Positions 4,736 through 60,586 of a DNA stretch of 64,000 bases are shown here, piece by piece. The notes under the pieces are model-generated. The model did not search any database and had not been told where the DNA came from. It worked only from the letters and a program-made list of their open reading frames with translations. The position numbers and the translations under genes were made by a program. Each line of letters begins with the position of its first letter. The stretch's first letter is position 1. The stretch comes from Deltaproteobacteria bacterium (lineage in GTDB: Bacteria > Myxococcota_A > UBA796 > UBA9615), in assembly GCA_002724675.1 (NCBI GenBank), contig PBPL01000101.1:8-64007 (forward strand), written 5' to 3'.

Positions 4736-4739
4736 GGCC

Positions 4740-8590: not shown

Positions 8591-8596
8591 GATCCG

Positions 8597-10351: not shown

Positions 10352-10362
10352 AGAGGCTCCCT

Positions 10363-11598: not shown

Positions 11599-11606
11599 GA
11601 CGTCTC

Positions 11607-13328: not shown

Positions 13329-13347
13329 GGTCCTCTCGCTCGAACAG

Positions 13348-18576: not shown

Positions 18577-19176
18577 ATGATCCCCGGCCCCCTCCAGTTC
18601 CAGCCACTACCCCAGGACGACCCGCTGCACCGCGCGCTCGCACAAATTGGTGAGCTCTATACAGCGACCAACTTCATGACCTGGTGGGATGCGCGAGCGT
18701 TCTCTGTGGATGGCAACTCTCAGGAGTGGGACCCGTTCGAGCGAAGCCACGCTTCGCTTCTCGCCAGCTTCTTGGAGGAGCATGTGCTGCCCACGTACAT
18801 CTCCGACGGTCCCGCTCGGTTCGACGAACACGTGGCTCGGGTAGGCAAGATCGGCTGGACCGATGTGCGCACTGGAATTCTCGAAGCTCTCAAGCACCAT
18901 CCAGTGTCAGGGGGAGCCCGACCGGGAACAGCGGCGGGCCAGTTTTCCCCGCACGCCTTCATGTTGTTGGAGGTGCTCGAAGACCAGGTGGCCGCCGCCC
19001 TCGGCCTGCCCAGCAGAGAAGAGCTGGATACGATCGAGCGAGAACATCTGCGTTGTGCGGTGTTGCGTCCACGAACAGGCTCCGTGTTCCGAGGCACCCT
19101 CTACCAATATCTGTTCCTGGTGTGGGCTCCGGCGAGCCGTCGGCTGCTTTGGTTCGACCTGGGAGGCAGTCAGTGA
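18577..19176 (+). CDS. Hypothetical protein, translationally coupled to the downstream UbiB-family kinase
   Basis: ORF in the 18469..19176 frame. ATG at 18577 (MIPGPLQFQPLPQDD...). The stop TGA 19174-19176 overlaps the GTG 19173 start of the next gene (GTGA). No recognisable motif. Confidence 0.5.
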   Translation: MIPGPLQFQPLPQDDPLHRALAQIGELYTATNFMTWWDARAFSVDGNSQEWDPFERSHASLLASFLEEHVLPTYISDGPARFDEHVARVGKIGWTDVRTGILEALKHHPVSGGARPGTAAGQFSPHAFMLLEVLEDQVAAALGLPSREELDTIEREHLRCAVLRPRTGSVFRGTLYQYLFLVWAPASRRLLWFDLGGSQ

Positions 19177-49529: not shown

Positions 49530-50462
49530 TTACTCGAAGCCAATCAGCCAGATCGCCTGTCCACCGTACTGCCCAGACAGGTCCGTGCCCACGTAGGGGT
49601 TGGTCTCGGTGTTCTTGAAGAACTCCCAGTATCCGTACCACGAAGAGCCGGGGCCCGCCGCAGCCGAGACCTGGTTGATACCAATCTCGTTGGACAGCGT
49701 TCCAGGGGTGTTGTTCACGAAACCAGCGTGGGTGAACTCAAGCCCGTACTCAGACAGGGTCTGCTCGATCTCGGCAGCGCTGTAGCCACCGTCCACCGTC
49801 AGCTCCATGCCCTGATCGCTCATCGTGGTGACATCCACCAAGCCGAGGCTGAGGAAGTCGCCCATGCCACCATCGGTGATGGGAGTCAGCAGCGAGGGGC
49901 CGAAGTTGGCGCCGGCGAGGTCCAGCTCGGCGACATCGCAGTCGTCCGGGTTGGTCGCAGGATCGGAGATGTCGGTGGCCGACGTGTGATCGAACTCAAT
50001 GGAGCCCGTGCAGTTGTTGCAGCCTTCACCAGCCAGGATGCCGGGGCCGAAGGTGGCAGAGCCAGCGATCTGAATCCACTGCGTGCAGTTCAGGATCTGG
50101 GTTGCCTCGTTGTACTCAGCCCAGTAGTTGACACCGAACACGGCAGAGATGTCGGTAGAGGAGTCGTCCACGGGGACCGCTTCCATCTCGATGGAGAAGC
50201 TGATGGCAGCCAGCGCGAACTCAGCCGCGGTGTCGTCATCATCATCGTCGTCATCATCATCGTCGTCGCCGAGGTTGTTACCACCGTCGTCGTCGTCGTC
50301 ACCAGGAATGTTGTTGCCGTCGTTGTCAGTGTCACCGTCGATGGACGAGTCGCCACCATTGGCACCATCTGTGCGGGCATCACAGCCCATTCCAACCAAC
50401 GCAACACCCACAACCAGCGCCAACATATAGCTACTGAACATCTTCACGATAACCTTGAACAT
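49530..50462 (-). CDS. Asp-rich lipoprotein, function unknown
   Basis: ATG 50460-50462 preceded by GGAGGGAG. Lipobox LVGMGC. D/N/G-rich region including D5 and D12 runs. The remainder has no recognisable motif. Confidence 0.65.
   Translation of the reverse strand: MFKVIVKMFSSYMLALVVGVALVGMGCDARTDGANGGDSSIDGDTDNDGNNIPGDDDDDGGNNLGDDDDDDDDDDDDTAAEFALAAISFSIEMEAVPVDDSSTDISAVFGVNYWAEYNEATQILNCTQWIQIAGSATFGPGILAGEGCNNCTGSIEFDHTSATDISDPATNPDDCDVAELDLAGANFGPSLLTPITDGGMGDFLSLGLVDVTTMSDQGMELTVDGGYSAAEIEQTLSEYGLEFTHAGFVNNTPGTLSNEIGINQVSAAAGPGSSWYGYWEFFKNTETNPYVGTDLSGQYGGQAIWLIGFE
50232..50300 (-). repeat. GAY (Asp) codon tract encoding GDDDDDGGNNLGDDDDDDDDDDDD
   Basis: The plus strand reads GTCGTCATCATCATCGTCGTCATCATCATCGTCGTC..., a low-complexity trinucleotide tract inside the lipoprotein CDS. 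Confidence 0.9.
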
Positions 50463-50704
50463 TCGGGTCTCCCTCCACCTCGCATATACCGACCAGACCG
50501 GTTGCAGACACCCTGCAACACGAACCATCCAGCCCAGCTGAGTGCGAGCGGCGAGCGGTATGTACCCGAGAGCCGCGCGAAAGAAAAGTCCTTTTTCGAA
50601 CAAGCCCTACGCGAAACGGCAACAGGCATCGAAATCGGAAAAAACAAGAAGAGACGCAACTTCAAGACAAGGTCGACGCTGTAACCGATAGCGGCAACCG
50701 CAGC

Positions 50705-51991
50705 TCAGTCAACGCGAACCTGCCTGGGAGGCTCCTTCGACGCCGAGACCGCTCTGACCCGAGCCGTATCCAGCTGACCTCGACCAAACTCCGAGTCGAT
50801 CTCGCGTGCCAGCGAGAGCACGAAGCGAAGAGTTTGCTCGAGAGCGCGGGGCTCTACCGAGTCCAATCGGTCCTGGTGCGTGTGTAAGACCTCCGCAGCC
50901 CTGCCACGAACCAACGTAGTGAGCGTCACCGCCCGGTAGCCGGCCTCCGTCACCGGACCCGCATCGGTTCGCCCCACAAGGGCGACCTCGCCGACCCCAT
51001 CGAACTCATCGGACTGAGCGAGACGCTCCGCCAGAGCAGGCAGGCTTGGTCTATATGGCAAGCGGTCCCAACGCCCTTCTGAGCTGACGAAGTGCAGCTC
51101 CCCACGGCCGACGTCGTCTAGGTTGACGAAGAAGGTCGCGCGCCGGTCCAGAAGATGAGCGAACTGGCGCACGAACGCCTTCATGCCGCCCGAGTCCGCT
51201 TCACGCGCGCCGGTCGCGAGGACCCACAGCTCGCAGTGCTCCAGTGGTTCATTCACCAGATGCTCCGCGGCCACTAGAGCCACCGCGAGGCCAGAGCCGT
51301 TGTCGATGGCCCCAGCGGTGGGGACAGAGCGCCACCAATCGATGGCAATGAGAAGCGTGGCGACGTGGATCCAGGCCGCCATCAGCAGCGCCGCAAGCGC
51401 GACGGGAGAGGGTTCAGGAAGCGCCAACGCCAAGATGGAGGCGACAAGTTGAGTAGCACCACCGACGAGTACAATGGTGCCAGGGTGCAGGGGCACACCA
51501 CCGATTAATTCATAGTGAGCCAGTCGCTTGACCCAGGGACTGAAGAGCGTGGACGCACCGGCCACGTCCGCATGCGCCACGAGCACCACCCGACCCCGAC
51601 TGCCCGGCTGCCGAAGGCGCGCGACCATATTGCCCGTCAGCTGCTTCATGAGAAGCCAGCGCACCAGACGCGGGCGGCCGCGAAGCTCACCCCAAAAGGA
51701 CAGCAAGACCAACGAAGTCAGCAACACAGGCCCCAACCCGTTGCTCAGAAGGGACCAGAGCAGGGCCACGAGCAGAAGGGCCGAGTGTGTCCCCAGCAGG
51801 ACAGAGGTCTGAGGAGCGCACACCGCCCCCTCAACGACCGTGTCCATGCCCAGCCGGTCTAGACGCCCGGCAAGCGCAGCCTGGGCCATGCGCTCACCTT
51901 GAGAACCCGCCAGTCGACCAGGCAACTCGGTGACAACCCCGATGAATTCCTTCATGCGTTGGACCGTCGATGTTTGATGCGAGTGTGACAT
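50705..51991 (-). CDS. M28-family metallopeptidase-like membrane protein
   Basis: RVVLVAHADV... and GAIDNGSGLAVALVAAEHL...WVLATGAREADSGGMKAF resemble M28 metal-ligand blocks. Several hydrophobic helices lie N-terminal to and between these blocks. Confidence 0.5.
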   Translation of the reverse strand: MSHSHQTSTVQRMKEFIGVVTELPGRLAGSQGERMAQAALAGRLDRLGMDTVVEGAVCAPQTSVLLGTHSALLLVALLWSLLSNGLGPVLLTSLVLLSFWGELRGRPRLVRWLLMKQLTGNMVARLRQPGSRGRVVLVAHADVAGASTLFSPWVKRLAHYELIGGVPLHPGTIVLVGGATQLVASILALALPEPSPVALAALLMAAWIHVATLLIAIDWWRSVPTAGAIDNGSGLAVALVAAEHLVNEPLEHCELWVLATGAREADSGGMKAFVRQFAHLLDRRATFFVNLDDVGRGELHFVSSEGRWDRLPYRPSLPALAERLAQSDEFDGVGEVALVGRTDAGPVTEAGYRAVTLTTLVRGRAAEVLHTHQDRLDSVEPRALEQTLRFVLSLAREIDSEFGRGQLDTARVRAVSASKEPPRQVRVD

Positions 51992-52073
51992 TGTCGAGAA
52001 GAGTCTAAACCGTTCGCTATACTCTCAAACCCCAGGGGTCGGTCTTCGGCCCATTACCTCGGTTAGGACCTCG

Positions 52074-53498
52074 ATGAACCTCGTTGTCGACGAGGTTGTT
52101 TCGCTGCACAGCGACAACCTCTCTCATGTATTCCATGTACCCACATCATCGCTGTATGCGATGGACTCCGAAACCATGTCTATCCTCGAGGGTGCTCGTG
52201 ATGGACTGCATACCGATCAGAGCCTGCAGAAACTGACGGCGGACTCAGGTCTCGACCCGGCCGAGGTCGAGGACATCATCGACAATTTGGTGAAGTTGCG
52301 TCTCCTGGTCCCACCAGGCGAGACCGGCAACCGAGGCCCACTTGCTGACCGGCCGCAGAGTGGCCGGAGCATGGGCAATCTCGTCCTCCACGTGGCACAC
52401 ACCTGCAATCTGGGTTGCGGCTACTGCTATGCGGAGCAAGGCCTGTACAAGGGCAAAGCCACCCTCATGAACGAAGAGCGAGCCCATGAATATGTGGACT
52501 GGCTATTCGACCAGTGTGATCCGGAGACCAAGTCTCTCGGCATCACTTTCTTCGGGGGCGAGCCACTGCTGAATCTGAAAGTCATGAAGTCCGCCGCAGC
52601 CCATGCTCGAGAACGAGCGGACACGGACAACAAGTCTGTGCGGTTCTCCGTGACGACCAACGGCACCCTAGTCACCCCCGAGATCGTCGACTTTCTAGCC
52701 GCCATCGACTGTGTCGTCACAGTGAGTCTGGACGGCATCGGCAAGACCAACGATCGCCTGCGCCCGTTCCACTCGGGCCGCGGGTCCTACGACCTCGTCC
52801 TGGACCGCATCCAACCGCTCCTCGAACGGGGCAAGGTGGCTGCCCGTGTCACCGTCACCCGGCAGAACCTCGATGTCGTAGACACCGTCACGACGCTCCT
52901 CGAACGAGGCTTCGCTGAGGTGGGGTGCTCGCCAGTCGATGCGAAGAATCCTGCCTACGACCTGCGAGGGGAAGACTACGAAGTGCTGCTCGATGGCTTC
53001 GGCACACTCTCCCGACGCTACATCGACGAGGCCGTGCAGGGTCGTAAGTACGGCTTCTCTAACATCGCCAACATCATCAAGGCGGTGCACCAAGGGCACA
53101 ACAAGGACTACCCGTGCGGCGCGGGGCTCCAGATGGTTGCGGGTGCCCCCAACGGTGAGATGAGCCTATGCCACCGATTCGTTGGTGAGCCGGACTACGT
53201 CCTTGGCAACGTCAAAGAGGGTGGAATCGATAGCCATCGTCGGCTTCAGATCCTCGAGGACATCCAGCTGTCCGAGCGATCCGACTGCTCCAGTTGCTGG
53301 GCCCGTTACATCTGCTCCGGCGGATGCCACCACGTCAACTTCCTGTTCGAGGGAGACCCCAGCCGCACTTACCTGACCCACTGTGACTACCTCCGAGCTT
53401 GGTATCGCATGGGCCTCGAAGCCTACGCTGAGATCATGTCACGCAACCCCGAGTTCGTCGGGGAGTTCATCGACCCCGGTTTTCTGTGCAATCAGTAA
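52074..53498 (+). CDS. qhpD: Radical SAM / SPASM-domain peptide-modifying enzyme (QhpD-like thioether-forming maturase)
   Basis: CX3CX2C at C111/C115/C118 (CNLGCGYC, nt 52404-52427). Full 7-Cys SPASM motif: C348-x12-G-x4-C366 ... C405-x2-C408-x5-C414-x3-C418 ... C437 (nt 53115-53384). About 100 aa N-terminal to the core could be a peptide-binding (RRE-like) region. Sits immediately upstream of a QhpC-like peptide gene. Confidence 0.8.
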   Translation: MNLVVDEVVSLHSDNLSHVFHVPTSSLYAMDSETMSILEGARDGLHTDQSLQKLTADSGLDPAEVEDIIDNLVKLRLLVPPGETGNRGPLADRPQSGRSMGNLVLHVAHTCNLGCGYCYAEQGLYKGKATLMNEERAHEYVDWLFDQCDPETKSLGITFFGGEPLLNLKVMKSAAAHARERADTDNKSVRFSVTTNGTLVTPEIVDFLAAIDCVVTVSLDGIGKTNDRLRPFHSGRGSYDLVLDRIQPLLERGKVAARVTVTRQNLDVVDTVTTLLERGFAEVGCSPVDAKNPAYDLRGEDYEVLLDGFGTLSRRYIDEAVQGRKYGFSNIANIIKAVHQGHNKDYPCGAGLQMVAGAPNGEMSLCHRFVGEPDYVLGNVKEGGIDSHRRLQILEDIQLSERSDCSSCWARYICSGGCHHVNFLFEGDPSRTYLTHCDYLRAWYRMGLEAYAEIMSRNPEFVGEFIDPGFLCNQ

Positions 53499-53535
53499 CG
53501 AGAGCCTAAGATTGGCGCGAAAAGGAACCCAGCCC

Positions 53536-53832
53536 ATGAGCCGAATCAAGCCTCTGAACATTAAGGCAAGAGCTGTCGAAGCGAGCACAGACCGCGACGT
53601 GCGGGGCTACGCATTCGGCGACTGCTGCGCATCCTTCGCGCCGGGTTGGGAGGTGGGCACCCAAGACAACGCCGACCCCTGCCCGTGGAAGAGCGACCTC
53701 AGCCTCTGCTGGGGCACCTGCTACTGGATGGGTCAGGTGCCCGACTACATCTCGTACGGGGAGTGGCTCGACACCTGCGGCAACATTCAGAACGACTGGC
53801 GCAATCTCTGTACCATTCCGGACAACGGGTGA
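53536..53832 (+). CDS. qhpC: 98-aa Cys/Trp-rich precursor peptide, QhpC-like (gamma subunit of quinohemoprotein amine dehydrogenase; CTQ and thioether carrier)
   Basis: ATG 53536 preceded by AAAGGAA. Sequence MSRIKPLNIKARAVEASTDRDVRGYAFGDCCASFAPGWEVGTQDNADPCPWKSDLSLCWGTCYWMGQVPDYISYGEWLDTCGNIQNDWRNLCTIPDNG. Blocks C-x3-F-x-PGWEV, C-x3-C-x-W-x3-VPD and DWRNL match my recollection of Pseudomonas/Paracoccus QhpC. The Cys-to-acceptor spacings match the published crosslinks (see findings). Confidence 0.75.
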   Translation: MSRIKPLNIKARAVEASTDRDVRGYAFGDCCASFAPGWEVGTQDNADPCPWKSDLSLCWGTCYWMGQVPDYISYGEWLDTCGNIQNDWRNLCTIPDNG

Positions 53833-54908
53833 CGCTCATGCTCCAGCGCACGAACTCCTATATCTGCACTCTGGCCGCTCTCGTCGCGGCTGCCGTCTGG
53901 CTGCTCGCCCTGCCTCAGCACACAGAGGCGGCGGGCGCTCGCACTGCATGGGTATCTAGCAACCACATCCAGGTCATTGACCTGGACACGGCTCGGGTCA
54001 TTGGCCGGCTGCCGCTCTCCGAGTTCATCCACGACATGGACTTCAGCGTGGACGGCAACCGCGTGTACGTAGGCAGCAGCAAGGGGCTGCGTGTGGCCGA
54101 TGCCAACGAGCTCCGGTTTGTGCAGCAGGTGTCCACGAGCATGACCAAGGCCGTAGCGGTCTCCAAAGACGGCAGTCGCGTCGCAGCGATTCATCCTGGG
54201 GACCGAGAGGCGACACAGGCAGCCCGGAAAGCTGGCCTTCCCCTCCCCCCCGCCAAGATCACGATCTACTCGACGCTGGACATGAAGGAACAGAGTTCCT
54301 GGCACGTGCACGCCATGACATTCGATGTCCTGTTCGCGCCATCGAACGATCGGGTCTACGTGTTGGTACCCCCCGAGGGCATGGTCTATGTCCACGACTT
54401 GAGTGGGGCAGTTCTCGACACCATTCAGCTCGTACCGAGGAGCCCCGAGGGTTCCCACCAGGGAGCAATGCTGACCTGGATGGCGCTCTCGCCCGATGGC
54501 CGATCGCTGGTGGTCCCCGGCACAACCGCAGACCGATCGTTCGTAGCAGAGGTCGACCTGGGCAACAGACGACCCCTGGATGAACGCGTGGTCCACCAAG
54601 ATCTGGGACACAACCGGAGGATCCAAGGGCTGGCTTGGGACGATGACGGCAGTGGTGTTTACGTCACTGCAGTGAACTCCATGGTCAAGTTCAATGGTCT
54701 CGGTCTTCCCATCGCCTGGGAATCCATGCCGCTCAACTACGTCGACATCGAGCCCATCCCAGGCACCAACGAGAACGTCCTGGTGGCGCCCATCTTCTCC
54801 AAGTCCAACAAGAGCGGGGGGGTCGCCATCTTGGGCGAAAACGGCGAGTTCCTGAGAACGGTGGAGTTGCCCGACATGAGCCCCTACTTCGTGGCTGTCC
54901 GACCCTGA
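53829..54908 (+). CDS. qhpB: Periplasmic 7-bladed beta-propeller protein (QhpB-like beta subunit)
   Basis: GTG 53829 overlaps the precursor stop (GTGA); ATG 53838 is an alternative start. Signal peptide ...ICTLAALVAAAVWLLALPQHTEA-AG. Seven repeats of the pattern hydrophobic strand-D/N-x-turn...(S/D)xDGxRVYV, e.g. IQVIDLDTARVIG...FSVDGNRVYV, LRVADANELRF...VSKDGSRVAA, ALSPDGRSLVV, WDDDGSGVYV. Confidence 0.7.
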   Translation: MTLMLQRTNSYICTLAALVAAAVWLLALPQHTEAAGARTAWVSSNHIQVIDLDTARVIGRLPLSEFIHDMDFSVDGNRVYVGSSKGLRVADANELRFVQQVSTSMTKAVAVSKDGSRVAAIHPGDREATQAARKAGLPLPPAKITIYSTLDMKEQSSWHVHAMTFDVLFAPSNDRVYVLVPPEGMVYVHDLSGAVLDTIQLVPRSPEGSHQGAMLTWMALSPDGRSLVVPGTTADRSFVAEVDLGNRRPLDERVVHQDLGHNRRIQGLAWDDDGSGVYVTAVNSMVKFNGLGLPIAWESMPLNYVDIEPIPGTNENVLVAPIFSKSNKSGGVAILGENGEFLRTVELPDMSPYFVAVRP

Positions 54909-55900
54909 CCACACTCTGCCTACACGCGCCCGACCGGGCGCGGCTGACGCAACTTGAGCAAGCCTCGGACCTTCGTCGGTCGGAGGCTGCCTGGCTATCC
55001 AGTCTGCCCGACTACAGCCGGCTCTATTTTGGGGTCGAGTTCTGCGAGCACCTGCTTCCCAGCGCGGACGACGTGGAGGCCGCTTGCGACTTCTGCAACC
55101 GGCGTCAATGGAAGCTAACGCTGCTGACACCCTACGTAACCGACTGGGGGCTCGAGAAGATCGACCCACTCCTCCAGGCCCTAGACACCATGGCGCCCCA
55201 TGGCACCGAGGTGGTCGTCAACGACTGGGGAGTACTCCGCCAGGTAGCCAACCGCTCCAACGCAGACCTCTTGGTTGTACTGGGCCGAGGGTTGAACCGG
55301 ATGTTCCGCGACCCGAGAGTTCCCGATGTAGGTCCAGAACATCTGGGGGGAGACGCTCCACCGAGCGCTTGGCGTAGCGCGAGCCACCAGAGTCAGGGTT
55401 TCCGAACCATGCTCCGCTCGGCAGGCATCCAACGGATCGAAACGGACATGCCGATGCAAGGTATGCAGGACCTGGACCCCGACGAACAAGACCTGAAGCT
55501 AAGTGTTCACCTGCCCTATGGAATGGTGGCCAGCGGCCGCATCTGCATGATGAGCGCCCTTGGGCAGTCGGCTTCAGTGCGATTCCCCCCACCTCGCGCC
55601 TGCACTGCGCCCTGCCACGACTACACTTTGGAGCTTCGCGCGCCCTGGACGCGTCGAGCGGTTGGAGCAGGCCGGCTACCCCTGGTTGCAGAGGACAGCT
55701 TTCTGCCTCTAGACCACGTGCTCAATCGCCGTCGTAACGCGTTTCCAGCCCACGAGAATGACGACGCACCGAGGTTCATCCAGAAAGGCAACACCCACTT
55801 CTACTGCCTGGACGAGGAGAAGGTGGACAGTGCGCTGGACTGGGTCCACCGCAACCCCACAGCAGACCGCATCGTGGTAGCACCTGACGTGCCCATGTAG
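54905..55900 (+). CDS. Divergent peptidase-U32-family (TIM-barrel) protein, first of a tandem pair; probable CTG start
   Basis: The listed ORF starts at GTG 55073. The same frame is open back to 54902 and encodes TTLCLHAPDRARLTQLEQ...YSRLYFGVEFC, paralogous to the N-terminus of the next gene (QILCPVNSPEEVAPLVDAGADEFYCG), which is the typical U32 start. U32-like core KLTLLTPYV...EVVVNDWGVLRQV...GIQRIETDMP. Cys cluster C-x19-C-x3-C (GRICMM...RACTAPCH). Confidence 0.5.
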   Translation: MTTLCLHAPDRARLTQLEQASDLRRSEAAWLSSLPDYSRLYFGVEFCEHLLPSADDVEAACDFCNRRQWKLTLLTPYVTDWGLEKIDPLLQALDTMAPHGTEVVVNDWGVLRQVANRSNADLLVVLGRGLNRMFRDPRVPDVGPEHLGGDAPPSAWRSASHQSQGFRTMLRSAGIQRIETDMPMQGMQDLDPDEQDLKLSVHLPYGMVASGRICMMSALGQSASVRFPPPRACTAPCHDYTLELRAPWTRRAVGAGRLPLVAEDSFLPLDHVLNRRRNAFPAHENDDAPRFIQKGNTHFYCLDEEKVDSALDWVHRNPTADRIVVAPDVPM

Positions 55901-55928
55901 GCTTGCGAGCCCTAGGACCCAGAGCCCC

Positions 55929-57035
55929 GTGCAAATCCTTTGCCCCGTCAACAGCCCCGAAGAGGTCGCTCCGCTTGTGGATGCAGGGGCGGACGAGTTC
56001 TACTGCGGCCTGTTCCCCACAGAGTGGTACGAAAAGTGGGGTCGTGGGAGCTGGCCTAACCGGCGCGGACCAGGCCCGGCCAACATCAGCAAGATTGACG
56101 ACCTGGCGCGGCTGGCAGACAGCGTGCACACCGCAGGCTCCGGTGGGCCCAACCAGCGGCGAGTTCCACTGTTCGTTGCGCTAAACCAACAGTTCTACCC
56201 AGACGACCAGGCGGACTTCCTCCTGGGGATCGCTCAGGACCTCCAGAGCCGCTCCGCTGTGGACGCCTTCATAGTGAGTGACCCCGGCTTCATGGGCCTC
56301 TTGAAGACTGAGATTCCGGAGGCGCGAGTCTTCTCCTCCACGGTGTCTGTTGCAACCAATGCTCAGGCGGTCCGGTTTCTTGCGGACTTGGGATGCTCCC
56401 GAGTCATCCTGTCCCGTCATCTGCACCTGGCCGAGGTCGAGTCGCTGCAACAATCCGTCCCCGATGTGGAGCTGGAGGTCTTCCTGCTCAACGACAACTG
56501 TTATTTCGAGGAAGGCTTCTGCAGCACGACACACACCATGCCGGGCTTCGGTGTCTACTGCATGACACCGTGGGAGCTGAGAGTCACCCGCGATGATCAG
56601 GGGGGGCAGGGTCTATCCGATCCCGAGGAGCGAGCTCGCTGGGACTTTCTCATCGACGAGCACCGACGCTTCCTGGGCAATCTGTCGCACCGGGGTTTTG
56701 GGGGCGGTCGCGCAGCAGTTCCGCTCGGACCATGCGGACTCTGCGCGATCCCCAAGCTCATGGACCTGGGCATCCACAGCGGCAAGATCGTGGGTAGGGA
56801 GGCCAGCCTGTATCGAAAGATCCGCTCTGTTCAGTCCGTCCGATACGTACGGGACAGCTATCGAGAAACCGGAGATGCTCAAGAGGCAAAGAAGAAGGCA
56901 GTAGAGCTTCGTGCTGACCCACGGGGTTGCAGTAGCGGCATGTCCTGTTACTACCGTAGCGCCCGAGACCGCGACCTCATCCCCCTGCCCTCCCGGAGCA
57001 CCAAGAAGCCGACTCGAAACGCGACCAAGCCATGA
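55929..57035 (+). CDS. Peptidase-U32-family protein, second of the tandem pair
   Basis: GTG start. MQILCPVNSPEEVAPLVDAGADEFYCG, VALNQQFYPDD...DAFIVSDPGFMGLLK, VSVATNAQAVRFLADLGCSRVILSRHLHLAEV and FLLNDNCYFEEGFCSTTHTMPGFGVYC (CX6CX12C), plus PCGLC. This is the U32 architecture with Fe-S-type cysteines, as in the UbiU/UbiV/RlhA family. Confidence 0.65.
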   Translation: MQILCPVNSPEEVAPLVDAGADEFYCGLFPTEWYEKWGRGSWPNRRGPGPANISKIDDLARLADSVHTAGSGGPNQRRVPLFVALNQQFYPDDQADFLLGIAQDLQSRSAVDAFIVSDPGFMGLLKTEIPEARVFSSTVSVATNAQAVRFLADLGCSRVILSRHLHLAEVESLQQSVPDVELEVFLLNDNCYFEEGFCSTTHTMPGFGVYCMTPWELRVTRDDQGGQGLSDPEERARWDFLIDEHRRFLGNLSHRGFGGGRAAVPLGPCGLCAIPKLMDLGIHSGKIVGREASLYRKIRSVQSVRYVRDSYRETGDAQEAKKKAVELRADPRGCSSGMSCYYRSARDRDLIPLPSRSTKKPTRNATKP

Positions 57036-58927
57036 CCTCAAAGGGGTCCCCTCCCCCCTCTCCAGCCTTTGTGCCCGAGGCCATACGGCCGGACTCGGTG
57101 CGCCCAGCCGACACGGAGGTGTCGGAGCACACGAAGGTCCCCTGGAAGCGCGTCTTCAGCTACCTACTGCCCTACTGGAAGGCCGAGGTCCTTCTGGTGC
57201 TCGGTATGGCGATCGGTATTGGGCTCTCCTTGGTCTACCCGTTCCTGCTGCGAGAAATCGTCGACGATGTGGTGGGCCCCGGCGCCTCGGCTGCGACCGA
57301 TCGATTGTTACCCCTTGCCGCCCTCATCCTGGCCGCCACGGCCGGCGGGGTCGTGCTCTCTGCCGCTGCCGCCTGGCTCCAGACCTGGGTCACAGCACAC
57401 GTCCTCGTTGATCTCCGCTTGGAGTTGTTCCAGCACCTTCAGTCATTGGGCCCTGCTTTCTTTGCCCGCAAGCGACTGGGGGACGTCCTGTCTCGCATGG
57501 GAGGAGACCTCGCCGAGCTGCAACAGGTGGCCACCGGAACTCTCATCAATGTCATTGGGTCGGTCGTCACACTCGTGGGAGTCATCACGGCGCTCACCTT
57601 CCTCCAGCCCCTATTGCTTGCCGTAGGCGCGGCGTTCATCCCCATCGCTATCGGCTTACTGGTGCTGCTTCGGCCCATCATCCGGCGCCTGTCTTTGAGG
57701 ATTCGAGAGCGCAACGCTGACATCTCCCATCAGATGTTGGAGAGCCTAACCGGCCTGCGCACGGTCCTGGCCCACGGGCTTGCCGACCGAGAAGCGAAGC
57801 GGTTCGAGGGCAACAACTTGGCGTTGATCCGAGCCGTTCTGCTCTTCCGCCTGTGGAACTCGGGATCAGCCGGCGCCTTCCAGATCCTCGTCACGGCGAA
57901 CCTCCTGGCTGTCCTCGTCGTTGGTGTCTGGCTGATGCGAACGACTGCGATGACCCCAGGCGACCTCGTCGCGTTCCTCCTGTTCCAACAGCGACTCTAC
58001 GGTCCGCTGCAGGGGCTGGCGGGCACTTATGTCAATCTGCAGCGGGCAGCAGCGTCAGTGGCGCGAGTCTTCGAGTTGCGCGACGCCAAGCCCCTGGAGG
58101 CTGCCGACCCGGCCCTGTCCCTCGACGAACCCTTCCAGGGACGCGTCGAGTTCGACAAGGTTTCGTTCCAATACGCTCCCGGACGACGGGTTCTGACCGA
58201 CCTGACGATGCGAGTGGATCCCGGAGAGACCGTGTGCCTGGTCGGCCCCTCAGGAGTGGGCAAGACGACCGTCCTCGAGCTCATGTTTCGATTCGTCGAC
58301 CCCGATGAGGGACGCGTTCTACTGGACGGCATCGATCTTCGAGAACTGGACCTCGACAGCGTTCTGCCCCAGGTCGCGTTGGTAGGCCAAGAGCCCGCGC
58401 TGTTCGATGGCACTCTACGCGACAACCTCCGATGGCTCCGGCCGGACGCGCCAGAGGCCACCATGAACGAAGTGGTCGAGCAAGTGGGCTTGTCGGAGTT
58501 CGTCCGCAGCCTGCCCCAGGGGCTGGAGACTCCTCTCGGCGACCGCGGCATTCGCCTGTCCTCTGGGCAGCGCCAGCGCATCGGGCTCGCCCGCGCGCTT
58601 CTCCGAGAACCCGTCCTCTTGGTGCTGGACGAAGTCACCTCGGCCCTGGACTGGGAGAGTGACCGGCTCGTCGTCGAAGCACTCCAAGCTCGGCGAGCCT
58701 CGGGCTGCACCACCCTGATCATCTCCCACCGCCTGCATCTTGCCGTCGATGCAGACCGAGTCGTCGTACTAGAAGACGGTCACGTGGCGACCACAGGCAC
58801 CCACCTCACCCTGCTCGACCAGGGCGGACTGTACCGCAGACTTTGGGACTTGCAGCGAGGCGCGGCAGAGGCCAGGAGGTCCCCCAGCAGCGGCAGAACA
58901 CACCCCACCGAGGACGGCTCGGCGTGA
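57032..58927 (+). CDS. qhpF: ABC exporter, fused TMD-NBD half transporter (QhpF-like)
   Basis: ATGA overlap with the U32 stop. Six-helix TMD followed by Walker A GPSGVGKTT, signature LSSGQRQRIGLARAL and Walker B LLVLDEVTSALD. Confidence 0.8.
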   Translation: MTSKGSPPPSPAFVPEAIRPDSVRPADTEVSEHTKVPWKRVFSYLLPYWKAEVLLVLGMAIGIGLSLVYPFLLREIVDDVVGPGASAATDRLLPLAALILAATAGGVVLSAAAAWLQTWVTAHVLVDLRLELFQHLQSLGPAFFARKRLGDVLSRMGGDLAELQQVATGTLINVIGSVVTLVGVITALTFLQPLLLAVGAAFIPIAIGLLVLLRPIIRRLSLRIRERNADISHQMLESLTGLRTVLAHGLADREAKRFEGNNLALIRAVLLFRLWNSGSAGAFQILVTANLLAVLVVGVWLMRTTAMTPGDLVAFLLFQQRLYGPLQGLAGTYVNLQRAAASVARVFELRDAKPLEAADPALSLDEPFQGRVEFDKVSFQYAPGRRVLTDLTMRVDPGETVCLVGPSGVGKTTVLELMFRFVDPDEGRVLLDGIDLRELDLDSVLPQVALVGQEPALFDGTLRDNLRWLRPDAPEATMNEVVEQVGLSEFVRSLPQGLETPLGDRGIRLSSGQRQRIGLARALLREPVLLVLDEVTSALDWESDRLVVEALQARRASGCTTLIISHRLHLAVDADRVVVLEDGHVATTGTHLTLLDQGGLYRRLWDLQRGAAEARRSPSSGRTHPTEDGSA

Positions 58928-59658
58928 ACAAGTCCACTACAGACCGAGGTCCTCTGGTCGCTGTCGTGGACAGTGGCGTGGCAGCCGGACACCCGCACTT
59001 GGAAGGCCTACAGTTGCGTTCCTTCTCCCTCGAGGGAGCGGGATCACCACTGGACCGACGGCCAGAGGCATCGGACCGGACAGGGCATGGCACTGCGTGT
59101 GTTGCCGCCCTATACCGGGCGAATCCCCGGGTGGAGGTCCTAGCAATCCGTCTCTTGGATGAAGAGTTGAGAACAACCGCCGAGGCTGTGGCCGAGGCGA
59201 TCCGCGTCGCTGCCGACGAAGGAGCGAAGGTCATCAACCTCAGCCTGGGCTCGGGCAGGGCCGAATCGAGGTCCCTACTGGAGGAGGCCGTGCTGTACGC
59301 CAGGGAGCGGTCAGCACACTGTGTGGCTGCCGCCCACCCAAAGGGACGGCAGCTTTGGCCAGCCGACCTGCCCAGCGTGATCTCAGCGATTAGTCACCGC
59401 AGTTGCCCTCTCAGCGACCTGTATCGTGTGGAGGGGCCACTGCCCCGGTTTCTCGCGCACGGCTATCCACGGCCCATCGAGGGCCGGCCCCCCACCGCCA
59501 ATCTGTACGGCCCATCGTTTGCCGCCATTCACTTGTCAGCAAAGGTTGCGGAGATTCTGACCAGAGACTCCCAGTTGGCATTCTCCGACATCGTCACCTG
59601 CCTGGAAGAGAGCTGTTCCGGCTCCTGGAATGAAACCAGCACTCACCCTAGGTCTTGA
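58924..59658 (+). CDS. qhpE: Cytoplasmic subtilisin-like (S8) serine protease (QhpE-like leader peptidase)
   Basis: GTGA overlap with the ABC stop. Asp block LVAVVDSGV, His block DRTGHGTACVAAL, Asn region VINLSLG, Ser block YGPSFAAIHLSA. No signal peptide. Only 244 aa. Confidence 0.7.
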   Translation: MNKSTTDRGPLVAVVDSGVAAGHPHLEGLQLRSFSLEGAGSPLDRRPEASDRTGHGTACVAALYRANPRVEVLAIRLLDEELRTTAEAVAEAIRVAADEGAKVINLSLGSGRAESRSLLEEAVLYARERSAHCVAAAHPKGRQLWPADLPSVISAISHRSCPLSDLYRVEGPLPRFLAHGYPRPIEGRPPTANLYGPSFAAIHLSAKVAEILTRDSQLAFSDIVTCLEESCSGSWNETSTHPRS

Positions 59659-59683
59659 CCGACCCCTCCCAGCCCGATAAACG

Positions 59684-60562
59684 GTGTACATGTCTCCCGC
59701 ACCTGACGAACCGAGCTTCGAAGACGCTGAAGAGGCGTTCGAGCGTGGCGACGTCGAGACTGCCCTGGCGATCTGTGAGGGCTACCTCGGCGAAGACGAG
59801 TCCAAGGCACCCGTCGAGGCCCTCTACTTAGCTGCAGAGTGTCTCCTGGAGCTCCAGGAGGTCACCGAAGCGACCCACATGATCGACCTGGCCTTGAACG
59901 AGCACCCAGACGACGCCGTGCTGGTACACACGAAAGCCATTTGCTGCTTCGAGCAAGCCAAGCTCGAAGATGCTCGGAAGGGCTTCGAGAGAGCCGCGAA
60001 CCTGGACGACCAACTGGGGGAGCCGCTGTTCTACCTAGGCATCCTGACCGAACGAGACGGTGACTTCGGCGCAGCAGACCGCCTCTTTGAGCACGGTGTT
60101 CGCTTGGACCCCGAGAACCTGTCCCTGCCGGTCGATTGGCCGGCCGACAAGGTTCGCCAGATCTTCGATGAGGTGGTCGAAGAGATGCCAGATCCTTTTG
60201 GCATGTGGCTGGCTGGTCTGCGCGTGGACGTGGCCGACCTTCCCGACGACGCTGCTCTGGCTGCCGCAGAGGGACCCATCTCCCCACTCGTTCACTGTCT
60301 CTTTGACGGGCCAGCACCAAGCCCTCCGGCGGAGAAGACGGACCCCGACGAGTGGCTTACGACCCACCCGAGCCGCGTCCGACTGTTTCGACGCAACCTG
60401 GGCAAGAGCGCCCACGACGAGTACGAGCTACACCGAGAGATACTCGAAGCTCTCCTCTGGGAATCCATGGAGTTCCTGGGCCTCGACGAGGGACACCTGG
60501 CCAAGCTCGGTATCCTCGACGACGAGGACGACGAGGCGCTGCTCCCGGGCAAGCCCCACTAG
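59684..60562 (+). CDS. TPR-repeat protein fused to a degenerate Zincin_1 (DUF1025-like) domain that lacks the HExxH histidines
   Basis: N-terminal TPR-like helices (AEEAFERGDVETALAICEGYL..., AICCFEQAKLEDARKGFERAANLD..., LFYLGILTERDGDFGAADRLFEHGVRLDP). The C-terminus VRLFRRNLGKSA...REILEALLWESMEFLGLDEGHLAKLG aligns with the ...VLHEIGHHFGLDEEDL..LG family motif, but W/E/F replace the His ligands. 25 nt after qhpE-like, and the last gene before a strong hairpin. Confidence 0.55.
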   Translation: MYMSPAPDEPSFEDAEEAFERGDVETALAICEGYLGEDESKAPVEALYLAAECLLELQEVTEATHMIDLALNEHPDDAVLVHTKAICCFEQAKLEDARKGFERAANLDDQLGEPLFYLGILTERDGDFGAADRLFEHGVRLDPENLSLPVDWPADKVRQIFDEVVEEMPDPFGMWLAGLRVDVADLPDDAALAAAEGPISPLVHCLFDGPAPSPPAEKTDPDEWLTTHPSRVRLFRRNLGKSAHDEYELHREILEALLWESMEFLGLDEGHLAKLGILDDEDDEALLPGKPH

Positions 60563-60563
60563 T

Positions 60564-60586
60564 CTCAGATGGGCAGACCATCTGAG
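60564..60586. terminator. 9-bp perfect hairpin between convergent genes (candidate bidirectional terminator; 3' boundary of the qhp-like operon)
   Basis: CTCAGATGG-GCAGA-CCATCTGAG, starting 2 nt after the TPR gene stop and 24 nt before the stop of the minus-strand lipoprotein gene. No U-tract. Confidence 0.45.

What the first reader, a model, noticed from the sequence alone, without database searches (positions are those of the whole stretch)
52074..60586. Non-canonical qhp-like operon: radical-SAM-crosslinked quinopeptide system without the haem subunit or flavin monooxygenase
Seven or eight co-directional, mostly translationally coupled genes:
- radical SAM/SPASM enzyme (52074-53498);
- 37-nt gap containing an AAAGGAA Shine-Dalgarno sequence;
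- 98-aa Cys/Trp peptide (53536-53832);
- GTGA overlap;
- signal-peptide beta-propeller (53829-54908);
- CTGA overlap;
- first U32-like gene (54905-55900);
- 28-nt gap;
- second U32-like gene (55929-57035);
- ATGA overlap;
- ABC exporter (57032-58927);
- GTGA overlap;
- small cytoplasmic subtilisin (58924-59658);
- 25-nt gap;
- TPR/pseudo-zincin gene (59684-60562);
- a 9-bp hairpin.

The radical SAM - peptide - propeller - ABC - subtilisin set mirrors the Paracoccus/Pseudomonas qhp operon as I remember it: qhpA, D, C, B, E, F, G, R. That operon builds quinohemoprotein amine dehydrogenase. QhpD installs three Cys-Asp/Glu thioethers in QhpC. QhpG dihydroxylates the Trp. QhpE removes the leader. 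QhpF exports the gamma subunit.

Here the gene order differs, qhpA and qhpG are absent, and two U32-family genes and a TPR protein are inserted. I know of no description of this configuration.
Basis: partly seen in the sequence, partly recalled or inferred. Interest (0 to 1): 0.9.

Follow-up and report, generated by a model that had tools for sequence, protein, structure and literature searches.

The report
Haem-less quinoprotein operon with iron-sulfur hydroxylase pair
This operon builds a tryptophan-quinone amine dehydrogenase, but the usual oxygen-dependent flavin hydroxylase is replaced by a pair of iron-sulfur proteins related to the oxygen-independent ubiquinone hydroxylases, which points to a so far undescribed way of making this protein-derived cofactor without O2.

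Summary
Eight co-directional, mostly overlapping genes occupy 52074-60562.

**What the genes are**
- Five are homologues of qhp genes: QhpD, QhpC, QhpB (remote), QhpF and QhpE.
- No qhpA or qhpG exists anywhere in the 64 kb window.
- The peptide keeps every canonical crosslink residue and the quinone tryptophan.

**What I add**
- Gene 5 is a U32 protein, 27% identical to E. coli UbiU.
- Gene 4 belongs to an unannotated family of about 2,100 sequence clusters. It has a U32-like barrel fold and four invariant cysteines spaced as in UbiV.
- This gene pair and QhpG exclude each other. Of 34 complete qhp maturation modules with the pair, none has QhpG. Of 41 without it, 38 have QhpG, and the other 3 are cut by contig ends.
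- In L134 the pair occupies the QhpG slot.
- The pair also sits in qhp clusters of cultured denitrifiers (Thauera). Aromatoleum aromaticum carries a gene-4 homologue of unknown context.

**Interpretation**
- The pair most likely hydroxylates the tryptophan without O2. This is inferred, not shown.
- The missing haem subunit is shared by about ten related genomes, but a copy elsewhere in the genome cannot be excluded.
- I found no publication linking U32 proteins to this cofactor.

Verdict: a new variant of a known system, of high interest.

The parts
51994..52023 (+). weak sigma-70-like promoter match upstream of the first gene
   Evidence: TCGAGA-18-TATACT, 9 of 12 matches. One site was found against 1.2 expected by chance, so this is not evidence on its own.
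52074..53498 (+). QhpD-like radical SAM/SPASM enzyme (474 aa). Predicted to install the Cys-to-Asp/Glu thioethers in the peptide.
   Evidence: TIGR03906 at 373.8 bits, full length, below the 453 cut-off; it is the best of 73 rSAM models. PF04055; 36% identity to Cupriavidus QhpD, E 2e-90.
53536..53832 (+). QhpC-like gamma-subunit precursor (98 aa). Leader is about residues 1-25. The core holds C30, E39, C49, D54, C58, C62, W64 and D70, plus extra cysteines C31, C81 and C92.
   Evidence: NF037958 at 63 bits, above the 50 cut-off. PF08992 at 41 bits, above 25; alignments show that all canonical crosslink and quinone positions are conserved.
53829..54908 (+). Secreted beta-propeller, a divergent QhpB (beta subunit) homologue. 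The N-terminus reads as a signal peptide by eye.
   Evidence: hhalign of the clade's propellers against the QhpB family gives probability 99.5%, E 7.5e-23, over 295 columns. No curated model hits it, and pairwise BLAST is insignificant.
54905..55900 (+). Gene 4: unannotated Fe-S TIM-barrel protein with a UbiV-like cysteine pattern. It is the partner of the U32 protein. It has a CTG start, or reinitiates translation, at the CTGA overlap.
55929..57035 (+). Gene 5: U32-family protein related to UbiU and TrhP (368 aa).
   Evidence: PF01136 at 121 bits; partial matches to TrhP (82.5 bits) and UbiU (72.7 bits); 27% identity to E. coli UbiU, E 1e-16, with UbiU C169, C176 and C193 aligned to C191, C198 and C211. 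C191, C198, C211, C269 and C272 are invariant in 73 sequences.
57032..58927 (+). QhpF-like ABC exporter (631 aa). Predicted to export the modified gamma subunit.
   Evidence: PF00664 plus PF00005; 32% identity to Cupriavidus QhpF, E 1e-81.
58924..59658 (+). QhpE-like small cytoplasmic subtilisin (244 aa). Predicted leader peptidase.
   Evidence: NF049966 at 128.9 bits, the best hit but below the 165 cut-off; the Asp, His and Ser triad motifs VDSG, GHGT and GPSFA align with QhpE.
59684..60562 (+). TPR plus pseudo-zincin protein (292 aa), cytoplasmic, specific to this clade. Role unknown; possibly a scaffold or chaperone.
   Evidence: TPR families and PF06262 at 34.6 bits, above 22.4; no HExxH in 10 relatives; the motif region reads LLWExMEFLGL; it is always the last gene of the operon in the clade.
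60564..60586 (+). 9-bp hairpin between the operon and the convergent gene; candidate terminator without a T run.
   Evidence: CTCAGATGG-GCAGA-CCATCTGAG, -18.2 kcal/mol, z -2.8.
50705..51991 (-). Divergently transcribed M28-family membrane peptidase. It is a conserved neighbour, but its membership in the system is uncertain.
   Evidence: PF04389; it is present upstream in most relatives. However, genes further upstream are syntenic too, so it may only reflect conserved genome order.

Best explanation
The locus encodes a two-subunit, haem-less relative of quinohemoprotein amine dehydrogenase together with its complete maturation line.

**Proposed pathway.**
1. In the cytoplasm, the QhpD-like radical SAM enzyme binds the leader of the 98-aa peptide. 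It forms three thioethers, by analogy C30-E39, C49-D54 and C62-D70.
2. The gene 4 / gene 5 pair then hydroxylates Trp64 at two positions without O2. Each protein is a TIM-barrel with a four-cysteine [4Fe-4S] site, and the pair probably acts as a heterodimer like UbiU-UbiV. By analogy with UbiU-UbiV, the oxygen would come from prephenate. This is the job that the FAD monooxygenase QhpG does with O2 in canonical operons.
3. The QhpE-like subtilisin removes the leader.
4. The QhpF-like ABC transporter exports the peptide.
5. In the periplasm the peptide joins the secreted QhpB-like propeller, and the Cys58-Trp64 quinone is completed.

**Status of each step.**
- Shown here: the homologies, the conserved residues, the gene order, and the mutually exclusive distribution of the pair and QhpG.
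- Inferred: the hydroxylase activity, the oxygen donor, the heterodimer, and the absence of any haem subunit in the mature enzyme.
For: **Homology and conserved residues**
- All canonical gamma-subunit residues and the leader motif are conserved.
- The QhpD, QhpB, QhpE and QhpF homologies are documented.
- Gene 5 is a U32 protein. Its cysteines align with three of the four UbiU [4Fe-4S] ligands.
- Gene 4 has four invariant cysteines in a CXnCX18CX3C pattern. The UbiV ligands follow CXnCX12CX3C.
- Gene 4 is homologous to its U32 partner. Its predicted fold matches the U32 structure 5d88 among the top hits of two methods.

**The two genes work together**
- A natural fusion protein, P0476 (705 aa), carries a gene-4 domain followed by PF01136.

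**Displacement of QhpG**
- In 32 loci centred on gene 4 that hold QhpC/D, QhpE and QhpF, none has QhpG.
- In a QhpC-centred metagenome sample of 43 such loci, 38 have QhpG only and 2 have the pair only. None has both. The 3 with neither are cut by a contig end 2-188 nt away.
- Fisher's exact test gives p = 3e-18, not corrected for phylogeny.
- L134 reads A-D-C-B-F-E-gene4-U32, where its relatives L137 and L142 read A-D-C-B-F-E-G.
- In the U32 tree, all qhp-linked pairs fall in one clade.

**Cultured hosts**
- The pair sits in qhp clusters of the cultured denitrifiers Thauera butanivorans and T. phenylacetica. Aromatoleum aromaticum and A. petrolei carry gene-4 homologues whose context could not be read.
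- A paper I could see only as a reference title reports quinohemoprotein amine dehydrogenases initiating anaerobic amine degradation in A. aromaticum.

**Published background**
- QhpG takes both oxygen atoms from O2 (PMC7876137).
- UbiU-UbiV are O2-independent hydroxylases of an aromatic ring, and prephenate is the oxygen donor (PMC6747719; PMC10990095).

**Localisation**
- Genes 4 and 5 have no signal peptide by eye. That fits action in the cytoplasm before export.
Against: - No biochemical activity has been shown in vitro for any U32 protein (PMC10990095). None is known to act on a protein.
- Gene 4 is not recognised by Pfam. Its comparison with UbiV itself is not significant: E 0.05-0.07 against a low-diversity UbiV profile.
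- Structural matches are shared with many unrelated TIM barrels.
- Gene 4 lacks a canonical start codon.
- Many hosts of the pair are not anaerobes (Blastocatellia, a Tara Oceans MAG). 'Anaerobic adaptation' therefore cannot be the whole story.
- About half of the gene 4 / U32 loci have no qhp gene within 10 kb, so the family is not restricted to this substrate.
- The distribution test is not corrected for shared ancestry.
- A qhpA or qhpG gene elsewhere in this genome cannot be excluded from a 64-kb window.
Confidence: 0.65

Rival explanations
1. The U32 pair belongs to the system but does a different step. Candidates are the Cys-Trp crosslink, oxidation of the dihydroxy-Trp to the quinone, or electron transfer to the radical SAM enzyme. 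Under this reading the tryptophan is hydroxylated by an enzyme encoded elsewhere, or spontaneously in the periplasm.
For: - The later steps of quinone formation are poorly defined. The 2025 review lists both QhpG and QhpA as biogenesis factors (PMC11951088).
- In this clade QhpA is missing too, so another activity might be needed.
- L007 and L171 carry both QhpG and the pair.
Against: - The pair is mutually exclusive with QhpG specifically, and it occupies QhpG's slot.
- It occurs equally with and without QhpA.
- Characterised relatives are all linked to hydroxylation of aromatic or heteroaromatic rings.
- Loci with both enzymes fit the dual-pathway pattern known for ubiquinone.
Confidence: 0.15
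2. The enzyme is an ordinary three-subunit quinohemoprotein. Under this reading qhpA, and perhaps a regulator, is simply encoded elsewhere in the genome, and the operon only looks haem-less.
For: - Only 64 kb of the genome is visible.
- L019, L020, L043 and L060 show that maturation modules can be separated from structural genes.
- Thauera loci lack QhpE/F or keep them on the other strand.
Against: - About ten species-level genomes of the clade share the qhpA-less operon, whereas every other clade puts qhpA directly upstream of qhpD.
- The clade's gamma subunit has three extra cysteines, and its beta subunit is too divergent for curated models. This is consistent with a changed quaternary structure.
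- A second group (L037, L045, L063) has only a haem-less 305-aa protein with alpha domain IV. Haem-free versions therefore exist.
Confidence: 0.25
3. The two U32-type genes are true peptidases, as the family name suggests. They would trim the peptide or degrade misprocessed product.
For: - The family was first named from collagenase-like activities.
- Gene 5 hits PF01136.
Against: - A dedicated leader peptidase (QhpE-like) is already present.
- Both proteins keep invariant four-cysteine sets typical of the Fe-S hydroxylase members.
- Peptidase action would not explain the exclusion of QhpG.
Confidence: 0.04
4. The locus makes a secreted thioether peptide natural product (ranthipeptide-like), not an enzyme subunit.
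For: - The second-best rSAM model is PapB, a ranthipeptide maturase.
- The set of ABC exporter, S8 protease and small Cys-rich peptide is a typical RiPP layout.
Against: - The peptide passes the equivalog cut-off for the gamma subunit. It keeps the quinone Trp, the quinone Cys, and the Asp33 equivalent that I recall as the catalytic base.
- A secreted QhpB homologue is translationally coupled to it.
Confidence: 0.04

Closest known systems
Quinohemoprotein amine dehydrogenase operon (qhpADCBEFGR) of Paracoccus denitrificans and Pseudomonas putida. The reference copy used here is Cupriavidus basilensis plasmid pRK1-2 (L088).
   Same: - The gamma peptide has the same leader motif, three Cys-Asp/Glu thioether positions and the Cys-Trp quinone positions.
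- The QhpD-type radical SAM enzyme, QhpB-type propeller, QhpE-type subtilisin and QhpF-type exporter are all present.
- The logic is the same: cytoplasmic maturation followed by export.
   Different: - There is no dihaem alpha subunit, no FAD monooxygenase QhpG and no AraC regulator.
- The gene order is D-C-B-x-x-F-E.
- Two Fe-S TIM-barrel genes and a TPR/pseudo-zincin gene are added.
- The gamma subunit has three extra cysteines.
- The beta subunit, QhpD and QhpE all score below the curated family cut-offs.
UbiU-UbiV, the O2-independent, prephenate-dependent hydroxylases of anaerobic ubiquinone synthesis (E. coli, Pseudomonas aeruginosa)
   Same: - Two adjacent paralogous genes are involved.
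- One partner has a clear U32 domain, with a CX6C...C motif aligned to UbiU ligands.
- The other partner has one far-upstream cysteine plus a C...CX3C group, as in UbiV.
- The pair stands in for a flavin monooxygenase that needs O2.
- Some facultative bacteria carry both routes.
- Several hydroxylations are made on one aromatic ring.
   Different: - The substrate would be a tryptophan in a crosslinked protein, not a prenylated phenol.
- There is no UbiT lipid-binding partner.
- Gene 4 is far more divergent than UbiV and is missed by PF01136.
- Cysteine spacings differ.
- The gene order is V-like then U-like.
TrhP and RlhA, U32 proteins needed for O2-independent hydroxylation of tRNA U34 and 23S rRNA C2501
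   Same: - They belong to the U32 family.
- They are macromolecular-substrate hydroxylases linked to prephenate and Fe-S clusters.
- Gene 5's best NCBIfam match is TrhP.
   Different: - They are single proteins acting on RNA.
- The match to gene 5 covers only about 90 residues and lies far below the cut-off (82.5 bits against 534).
LodA/LodB and GoxA/GoxB, quinone oxidases using the same Cys-Trp cofactor, matured by a flavoprotein
   Same: They are haem-less enzymes that use cysteine tryptophylquinone, with a dedicated hydroxylating partner encoded next to them.
   Different: They are large single-chain oxidases that use O2. They have no thioether-crosslinked small subunit, no radical SAM enzyme, no exporter and no U32 proteins.

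Membership tests
Quinohemoprotein amine dehydrogenase system (qhp) | Gamma-subunit precursor QhpC with a leader, four modified Cys, the acceptor Glu/Asp residues and the quinone Trp | tested here: met
   NF037958 scores 63 bits, above the 50 cut-off. C30, E39, C49, D54, C58, C62, W64 and D70 align with canonical positions. The residue numbering of the acceptors is recalled from the P. denitrificans structure.
Quinohemoprotein amine dehydrogenase system (qhp) | QhpD radical SAM/SPASM thioether synthase next to qhpC | tested here: inconclusive
   The best model is TIGR03906 over its full length, at 373.8 bits against a 453 cut-off. Identity to QhpD is 36%, E 2e-90. It is the closest family but scores below the equivalog threshold.
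Quinohemoprotein amine dehydrogenase system (qhp) | Beta subunit QhpB, a secreted seven-bladed propeller | tested here: met
   Profile-profile comparison gives probability 99.5%, E 7.5e-23, over 295 columns. This is remote homology only: no curated model hits and BLAST is insignificant.
Quinohemoprotein amine dehydrogenase system (qhp) | Alpha subunit QhpA, a dihaem cytochrome c (the 'hemo' in the name) | tested here: not met
   No BLAST hit to two QhpA references anywhere in the 64 kb window. None was found among the flanking ORFs scanned with Pfam. It is absent from the operon in about ten relatives. The rest of the genome was not visible.
Quinohemoprotein amine dehydrogenase system (qhp) | QhpG, the FAD-dependent tryptophan dihydroxylase | tested here: not met
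   No hit in the window. None of the 32 complete pair-containing modules has it.
Quinohemoprotein amine dehydrogenase system (qhp) | QhpE subtilisin-like leader peptidase and QhpF ABC exporter | tested here: met
   NF049966 is the best hit at 128.9 bits, below the 165 cut-off, and the catalytic triad is kept. The exporter is 32% identical to QhpF, E 1e-81.
UbiU-UbiV-type U32 O2-independent hydroxylases | Peptidase_U32 domain (PF01136) in both partners | tested here: inconclusive
   Gene 5 scores 121 bits. Gene 4 gives no hit, and only 1 of 29 family members reaches E 0.18. Gene 4 matches its partner family at probability 93%, E 3.4e-7. The U32 structure 5d88 ranks 2-3 in the fold searches.
UbiU-UbiV-type U32 O2-independent hydroxylases | Four conserved cysteines per protein that bind a [4Fe-4S] cluster | tested here: met
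   At the sequence level, gene 4 has C47, C214, C233 and C237 invariant. Gene 5 has C191, C198, C211, C269 and C272 invariant. The patterns compare with those in PMC6747719. Cluster binding itself cannot be tested here.
UbiU-UbiV-type U32 O2-independent hydroxylases | The two proteins form a heterodimer | not testable with these tools
   Indirect support only. The genes are adjacent in most of the 87 loci examined, and a natural fusion protein, P0476, exists.
UbiU-UbiV-type U32 O2-independent hydroxylases | Specific orthology to UbiU or UbiV | tested here: not met
   Gene 5 scores 72.7 bits against the 440 cut-off of the UbiU model. Gene 4 against UbiV gives E 0.05-0.07. These are distinct subfamilies.
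UbiU-UbiV-type U32 O2-independent hydroxylases | Hydroxylation without O2, using prephenate as the oxygen donor | not testable with these tools
   Needs anaerobic reconstitution or 18O-shikimate labelling.

The most novel reading that the evidence does not exclude
The gene 4 / gene 5 pair is the first U32-type hydroxylase that acts on a protein. It makes the dihydroxy-tryptophan precursor of cysteine tryptophylquinone without O2, replacing QhpG in many bacteria, including cultured denitrifying Thauera. That would explain how these quinoproteins are matured in anoxic cells. In the window's lineage the product is in addition a haem-free beta-gamma quinoprotein, with extra disulfide or thioether bracing in gamma, that hands electrons to a so far unknown acceptor.
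Probability: 0.5. Interest if true: 0.88.

Novelty: new variant of a known kind. Interest (0 to 1): 0.8.

Why it matters
**An open gap in cofactor biology.** Every described route to a tryptophan-derived quinone cofactor inserts oxygen from O2: QhpG, LodB/GoxB and MauG. Yet a cited paper title reports quinohemoprotein amine dehydrogenases initiating anaerobic amine degradation in Aromatoleum aromaticum. A dedicated, widespread O2-independent hydroxylase would close that gap.

**A new handle on the U32 family.**
- It would extend the newly proposed prephenate-dependent hydroxylation chemistry from lipids and RNA to proteins.
- It would give the U32 field a soluble, gene-encoded, mass-spectrometry-friendly substrate. 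In-vitro assays for this family have so far been lacking.
- It would assign a function to an unannotated family of about 2,100 sequence clusters.

**Electron transfer.** The haem-less version raises a separate question: how a quinone on a 70-residue subunit passes electrons onward without its built-in cytochrome.

**Testability.** Cultured hosts (Thauera, Aromatoleum, Stutzerimonas) make the idea testable by genetics now.

Tried and rejected
**Searches and comparisons that gave nothing**
- Sequence search of the gene-4 profile against PDB chains found only a designed TIM barrel at E 0.09.
- Pfam and NCBIfam give no hit on gene 4 or its family.
- Profile comparison of the gene-4 family with E. 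coli UbiV or UbiU was not significant.
- I spent a large protein search on UbiV to build a better profile. The 120 hits listed were all Enterobacteriaceae, nearly all above 85% identity (Neff 1.4), and the comparison did not improve.
- A plasmid search for a proteobacterial gene-4 homologue found no match.
- Clustering the neighbours of the 45 gene 4 / U32 loci without qhp genes found no recurrent partner family. The substrate of those pairs stays unknown.

**Sources I could not reach**
- The Aromatoleum paper (PMC6657600) is not held. I know only its title, from a reference list, and cannot say whether its authors noticed the two genes.
- The look-up of the A. petrolei protein found no record.

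**Ideas considered and rejected**
- Defence system or mobile element. The window is plain chromosomal context: the nuo operon, relA/spoT and guaA.
- GTG 55073 as the true start of gene 4, as in the GenBank records. That would remove invariant Cys47 and the first strand of the barrel.

Full report
**1. The observation**

The eight ORFs are present and co-directional at 52074-60562.
- a 37-nt gap with AAAGGAA before the peptide gene;
- GTGA, CTGA, ATGA and GTGA stop/start overlaps;
- two short gaps;
- a 9-bp hairpin at 60564-60586 (-18.2 kcal/mol, z -2.8).

Base composition is uniform across the window. The surroundings are ordinary chromosomal genes:
- a complex I operon;
- an ABC1 kinase;
- relA/spoT;
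- UDP-glucose dehydrogenase;
- guaA.

A 99%-identical gene-4 protein is annotated on a 64,056-bp contig of a MAG labelled 'Deltaproteobacteria bacterium' (MBN94197.1, locus tag CL928_09000). The tag style suggests a marine Tara Oceans bin, which is my own inference. This contig is probably the source of the window.

**2. What the genes are**

Curated models and pairwise comparisons place five genes in the quinohemoprotein amine dehydrogenase (qhp) system.

| Gene | Best model | Versus the Cupriavidus basilensis reference cluster (L088) |
|---|---|---|
| rSAM | TIGR03906 QhpD, full length, 373.8 bits (cut-off 453); next best PapB at 296 | 36% identity to QhpD, E 2e-90 |
| 98-aa peptide | NF037958, 63 bits (cut-off 50) | 37% identity to QhpC, E 4.5e-17 |
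| S8 protease | NF049966 QhpE, 128.9 bits (cut-off 165) | 29% identity; Asp/His/Ser motifs kept |
| ABC protein | none specific | 32% identity to QhpF, E 1e-81 |

The propeller hits no curated QhpB model. A profile of the clade's propellers nevertheless matches a profile of 25 QhpB sequences with probability 99.5%, E 7.5e-23, over 295 columns.

The peptide alignment shows the conserved leader motif (M-x-x-[IL]-K-P-[IL]-N-x-K-A-[RQ]). It also shows every canonical functional position:
- C30 and E39;
- C49 and D54;
- C62 and D70;
- quinone residues C58 and W64.

These correspond to Cys7-Glu16, Cys27-Asp33, Cys41-Asp49 and Cys37/Trp43 of the solved enzymes. Cys7, Cys27 and Cys41 and the Trp42-Trp43 pair are cited. 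The acceptor numbering is from my memory of the P. denitrificans structure.

Three additional cysteines (C31, C81, C92) are specific to the versions that lack an alpha subunit.

**3. What is missing**

Two QhpA references and a QhpG reference give no hit in any frame of the 64 kb window. Pfam scans of 30 flanking ORFs found none of the following:
- a c-type cytochrome;
- a cupredoxin;
- an FAD monooxygenase.

The rest of the genome is not visible.

**4. The two inserted genes**

*Gene 5.* It is a clear U32 protein (PF01136, 121 bits).
- Its best NCBIfam matches are partial hits to TrhP and UbiU.
- It is 27% identical to E. coli UbiU (E 1e-16).
- Its C191, C198 and C211 align to the UbiU cluster ligands C169, C176 and C193.
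- In 73 family members, C191, C198, C211, C269 and C272 are invariant.

*Gene 4.* It has no Pfam or NCBIfam match.
- It defines a family of 2,132 representatives at E <= 0.001 among 1.84 billion clusters, of which 1,630 score at E <= 1e-10.
- Every member that carries a source name is annotated 'hypothetical protein'.
- Four cysteines (C47, C214, C233, C237) are invariant in 87 sequences.
- One lies far upstream and the others form a C-X18-C-X3-C group. This echoes the UbiV ligand pattern CXnCX12CX3C (PMC6747719).
- The AlphaFold model is confident (pLDDT 86.9) and is a TIM barrel.
- The gene-4 family profile matches the profile of its own U32 partners at probability 93%, E 3.4e-7.
- Direct comparison with UbiV is not significant.

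I therefore call gene 4 a divergent U32-like Fe-S barrel, not a UbiV orthologue. A natural 705-aa protein fuses a gene-4 domain to a PF01136 domain. This supports the view that the two work as one unit, as UbiU and UbiV do.

*Start codon of gene 4.* No ATG, GTG or TTG precedes GTG 55073 in its frame. Yet homologues are 320-335 aa long and cover the upstream 56 codons, which include invariant C47. In a 78%-identical relative (L089) the CTGA junction is identical. Across the 56 codons there are 31 identities, 16 synonymous and 9 non-synonymous differences, and the other two frames contain stop codons. Translation must therefore begin at or near CTG 54905. The 275-aa GenBank models are too short.

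**5. Comparative genomics: the pair replaces QhpG**

*Gene-4-centred sample.* A scan of 185,579 species genomes with the gene-4 profile found 261 relatives. I mapped the best 80, plus the loci fetched earlier, against reference proteins. Three kinds of qhp-linked locus appear:
1. The window's clade (L001, L008-L014, L029, L089). It reads M28(-) | D-C-B-gene4-U32-F-E-[519 aa]-TPR/zincin and has no qhpA.
2. More than twenty loci, mostly Acidobacteriota. They read qhpA-D-C-B-gene4-U32-F-E.
3. Smaller groups:
   - Some hold only the maturation module D-(C)-gene4-U32-F-E.
   - Others (L037, L045, L063) have a haem-less 305-aa protein carrying alpha-subunit domain IV only (PF09100).

Of 32 loci that contain QhpC/D, QhpE and QhpF, none has QhpG.

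*QhpC-centred sample.* A scan of metagenome contigs gave 578 relatives, of which 80 loci were mapped. Among the 43 loci with QhpC/D, QhpE and QhpF:

| Content | Loci |
|---|---|
| QhpG only | 38 |
| Gene 4 / U32 pair only (L134, L135) | 2 |
| Both | 0 |
| Neither (all cut by a contig end 2-188 nt from QhpE/F) | 3 |

L134 reads A-D-C-B-F-E-gene4-U32. Its near relatives L137 and L142 read A-D-C-B-F-E-G. The combined 2x2 table gives p = 3e-18. The loci are not phylogenetically independent, so that number overstates the evidence.

In a neighbour-joining tree of the U32 partners, two basal clades have no qhp linkage. All qhp-linked pairs then fall in one large clade.

This is the signature of non-orthologous gene displacement of QhpG by the pair.

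**6. Link to physiology**

QhpG takes both oxygen atoms from O2 (PMC7876137). UbiU-UbiV hydroxylate an aromatic ring three times without O2, with prephenate as the oxygen donor. The authors of that work predicted the chemistry would be general for U32 proteins, most subfamilies of which are uncharacterised (PMC6747719 and PMC10990095).

A search with the proteobacterial gene-4 homologue found named proteins in the following cultured bacteria:
- Aromatoleum aromaticum;
- A. petrolei;
- Thauera butanivorans;
- T. phenylacetica;
- T. aminoaromatica;
- Stutzerimonas stutzeri;
- two Pseudomonas species.

The contexts I could read are:
- **T. butanivorans:** AraC | gene4-U32-ALDH-qhpA-D-C-B.
- **T. 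phenylacetica:** ALDH-gene4-U32 beside QhpE/F and qhpA, with no FAD monooxygenase.
- **L007 and S. stutzeri:** these carry both QhpG and the pair, although the S. stutzeri U32 gene is split. This is the dual arrangement known for ubiquinone synthesis across the O2 range.

A 2019 J. [quoted passage not shown] An O2-independent route to the cofactor must therefore exist, and the pair is the obvious candidate.

The pair is not confined to anaerobes (soil Blastocatellia, a marine MAG). From my own knowledge, TrhP and RlhA also work in aerobic cells, so this is compatible with the hypothesis.

**7. Proposed mechanism**

*Cytoplasm:*
1. The rSAM enzyme makes three thioethers.
2. The gene 4 / gene 5 heterodimer dihydroxylates Trp64 without O2.
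3. The S8 protease removes the leader.

*Export and periplasm:*
4. The ABC transporter exports the gamma subunit.
5. The gamma subunit associates with the secreted propeller, and the Cys58-Trp64 quinone is completed.

Shown: the homologies, the conserved residues, the gene coupling and the distribution. Inferred: every catalytic statement about the pair, the oxygen donor, and the subunit composition.

The TPR/pseudo-zincin protein has no HExxH motif in any of ten relatives. It may be a scaffold, since QhpG is known to form a ternary complex with QhpC and QhpD, but this is speculation.

The M28 peptidase gene is a conserved neighbour. It may only reflect conserved genome order, because genes further upstream are syntenic as well.

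**8. The missing haem subunit**

This is a separate feature of the window's lineage. The points in favour of a real beta-gamma enzyme are:
- The operon structure is the same in about ten genomes.
- The gamma subunit has clade-specific extra cysteines.
- The beta subunit is very divergent.
- Other haem-less variants exist (L037 type).

The point against is that only 64 kb is visible, and structural and maturation genes are sometimes separated in other genomes (L019, L043, L170). I put about 0.25 on qhpA being encoded elsewhere. The electron acceptor of a haem-less enzyme is unknown.

**9. Novelty**

Full-text searches returned nothing for these term combinations:
- QhpG with U32;
- U32 with tryptophylquinone;
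- quinohemoprotein with peptidase U32;
- the Aromatoleum paper's title phrase, QhpG, CTQ and 'U32 family', required two at a time, which returned only three QhpG/CTQ papers and none containing 'U32 family'.

A 2025 review lists only QhpG and QhpA as biogenesis factors for this cofactor. No curated protein family covers gene 4 or the gene-5 subfamily.

The library lacks most subscription papers, including the Aromatoleum study. A prior remark on these genes therefore cannot be ruled out.

I classify the finding as a new variant of a known kind:
- It is a qhp system with a different hydroxylase and, in this lineage, no cytochrome subunit.
- If the mechanism holds, it implies a new substrate class for U32 enzymes.

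Noticed in passing
window 54905-55072: Gene 4 has no ATG, GTG or TTG before 55073. A CTG inside a CTGA stop/start overlap is conserved in a 78%-identical relative (L089 position 9911), with 16 synonymous against 9 non-synonymous changes over 56 codons. The public protein models (HCP45161.1 and MBN94197.1, 275 aa) start too late and lack invariant Cys47.
   Followed up: yes
P0476 (protein): A natural 705-aa fusion carries a gene-4-family domain (residues 7-293) and a Peptidase_U32 domain (417-646). This is a Rosetta-stone hint that the two proteins act together.
   Followed up: partly
L037 4746-5660 and 7392-9834 (also L045, L063): Acidobacteriota loci carry a secreted 305-aa protein with only domain IV of the alpha subunit (PF09100, no CXXCH). 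It sits upstream of rSAM-QhpC, followed by two tandem propeller genes and then the U32 pair, ABC exporter and S8 protease. This is a second kind of haem-less variant.
   Followed up: partly
L032 8411-10021: In a Leptospirales MAG the QhpC-like leader and Cys/Trp core form the N-terminus of a 537-aa protein with a CARDB-like region. It sits next to an rSAM gene, the U32 pair and an S8 protease gene.
   Followed up: no
L082 915-1583: Two tandem QhpC-like genes lie in a Gemmatimonadota MAG, upstream of a divergent propeller and the U32 pair.
   Followed up: no
L171 9043-11988 and 14353-18048: In Stutzerimonas stutzeri a decayed second cluster lies next to an intact QhpF-E-G set. The decayed cluster holds a 41-aa QhpA fragment, an S8 gene, gene 4, and a U32 gene split into two ORFs.
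   Followed up: partly
L006 8614-12018; about 45 loci listed: About half of the gene 4 / U32 pairs have no qhp gene within 10 kb. Many are in MAGs of anaerobes (Desulfosporosinus, Thermodesulfobacteriota, Bacillota). One pair follows an arylsulfotransferase gene. No recurrent neighbour was found, so their substrates are unknown.
   Followed up: partly
L001 14638-16197 (also L013, L014): A 519-aa secreted protein with no Pfam match is inserted between the S8 and TPR/zincin genes in part of the clade. It is absent from the window.
   Followed up: no
window 49530-50603 (-): A 357-aa predicted lipoprotein has a long run of Asp (DDDDDDDDDDDD) and Asn/Gly/Asp-rich repeats and no Pfam match. A homologue is conserved upstream of the M28 gene in relatives.
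   Followed up: no
window 21082-22857 (+): A Ser/Thr protein kinase is fused to an FGE-sulfatase (formylglycine-generating enzyme-like) domain.
   Followed up: no
window 3236-16732 (-): A complete-looking NADH:quinone oxidoreductase (nuo) operon is present, followed by an ABC1/UbiB-type kinase at 18684-20999. This indicates a respiratory, quinone-using organism.
   Followed up: no
L008-L010, L013, L014, L029 record titles: The closest relatives of the window are deposited as 'uncultured Rickettsiales bacterium'. Their gene content and about 62% G+C look like the 'Deltaproteobacteria' / Myxococcota-type MAGs carrying the same operon, so the label is probably a taxonomy-mapping artefact.
   Followed up: no
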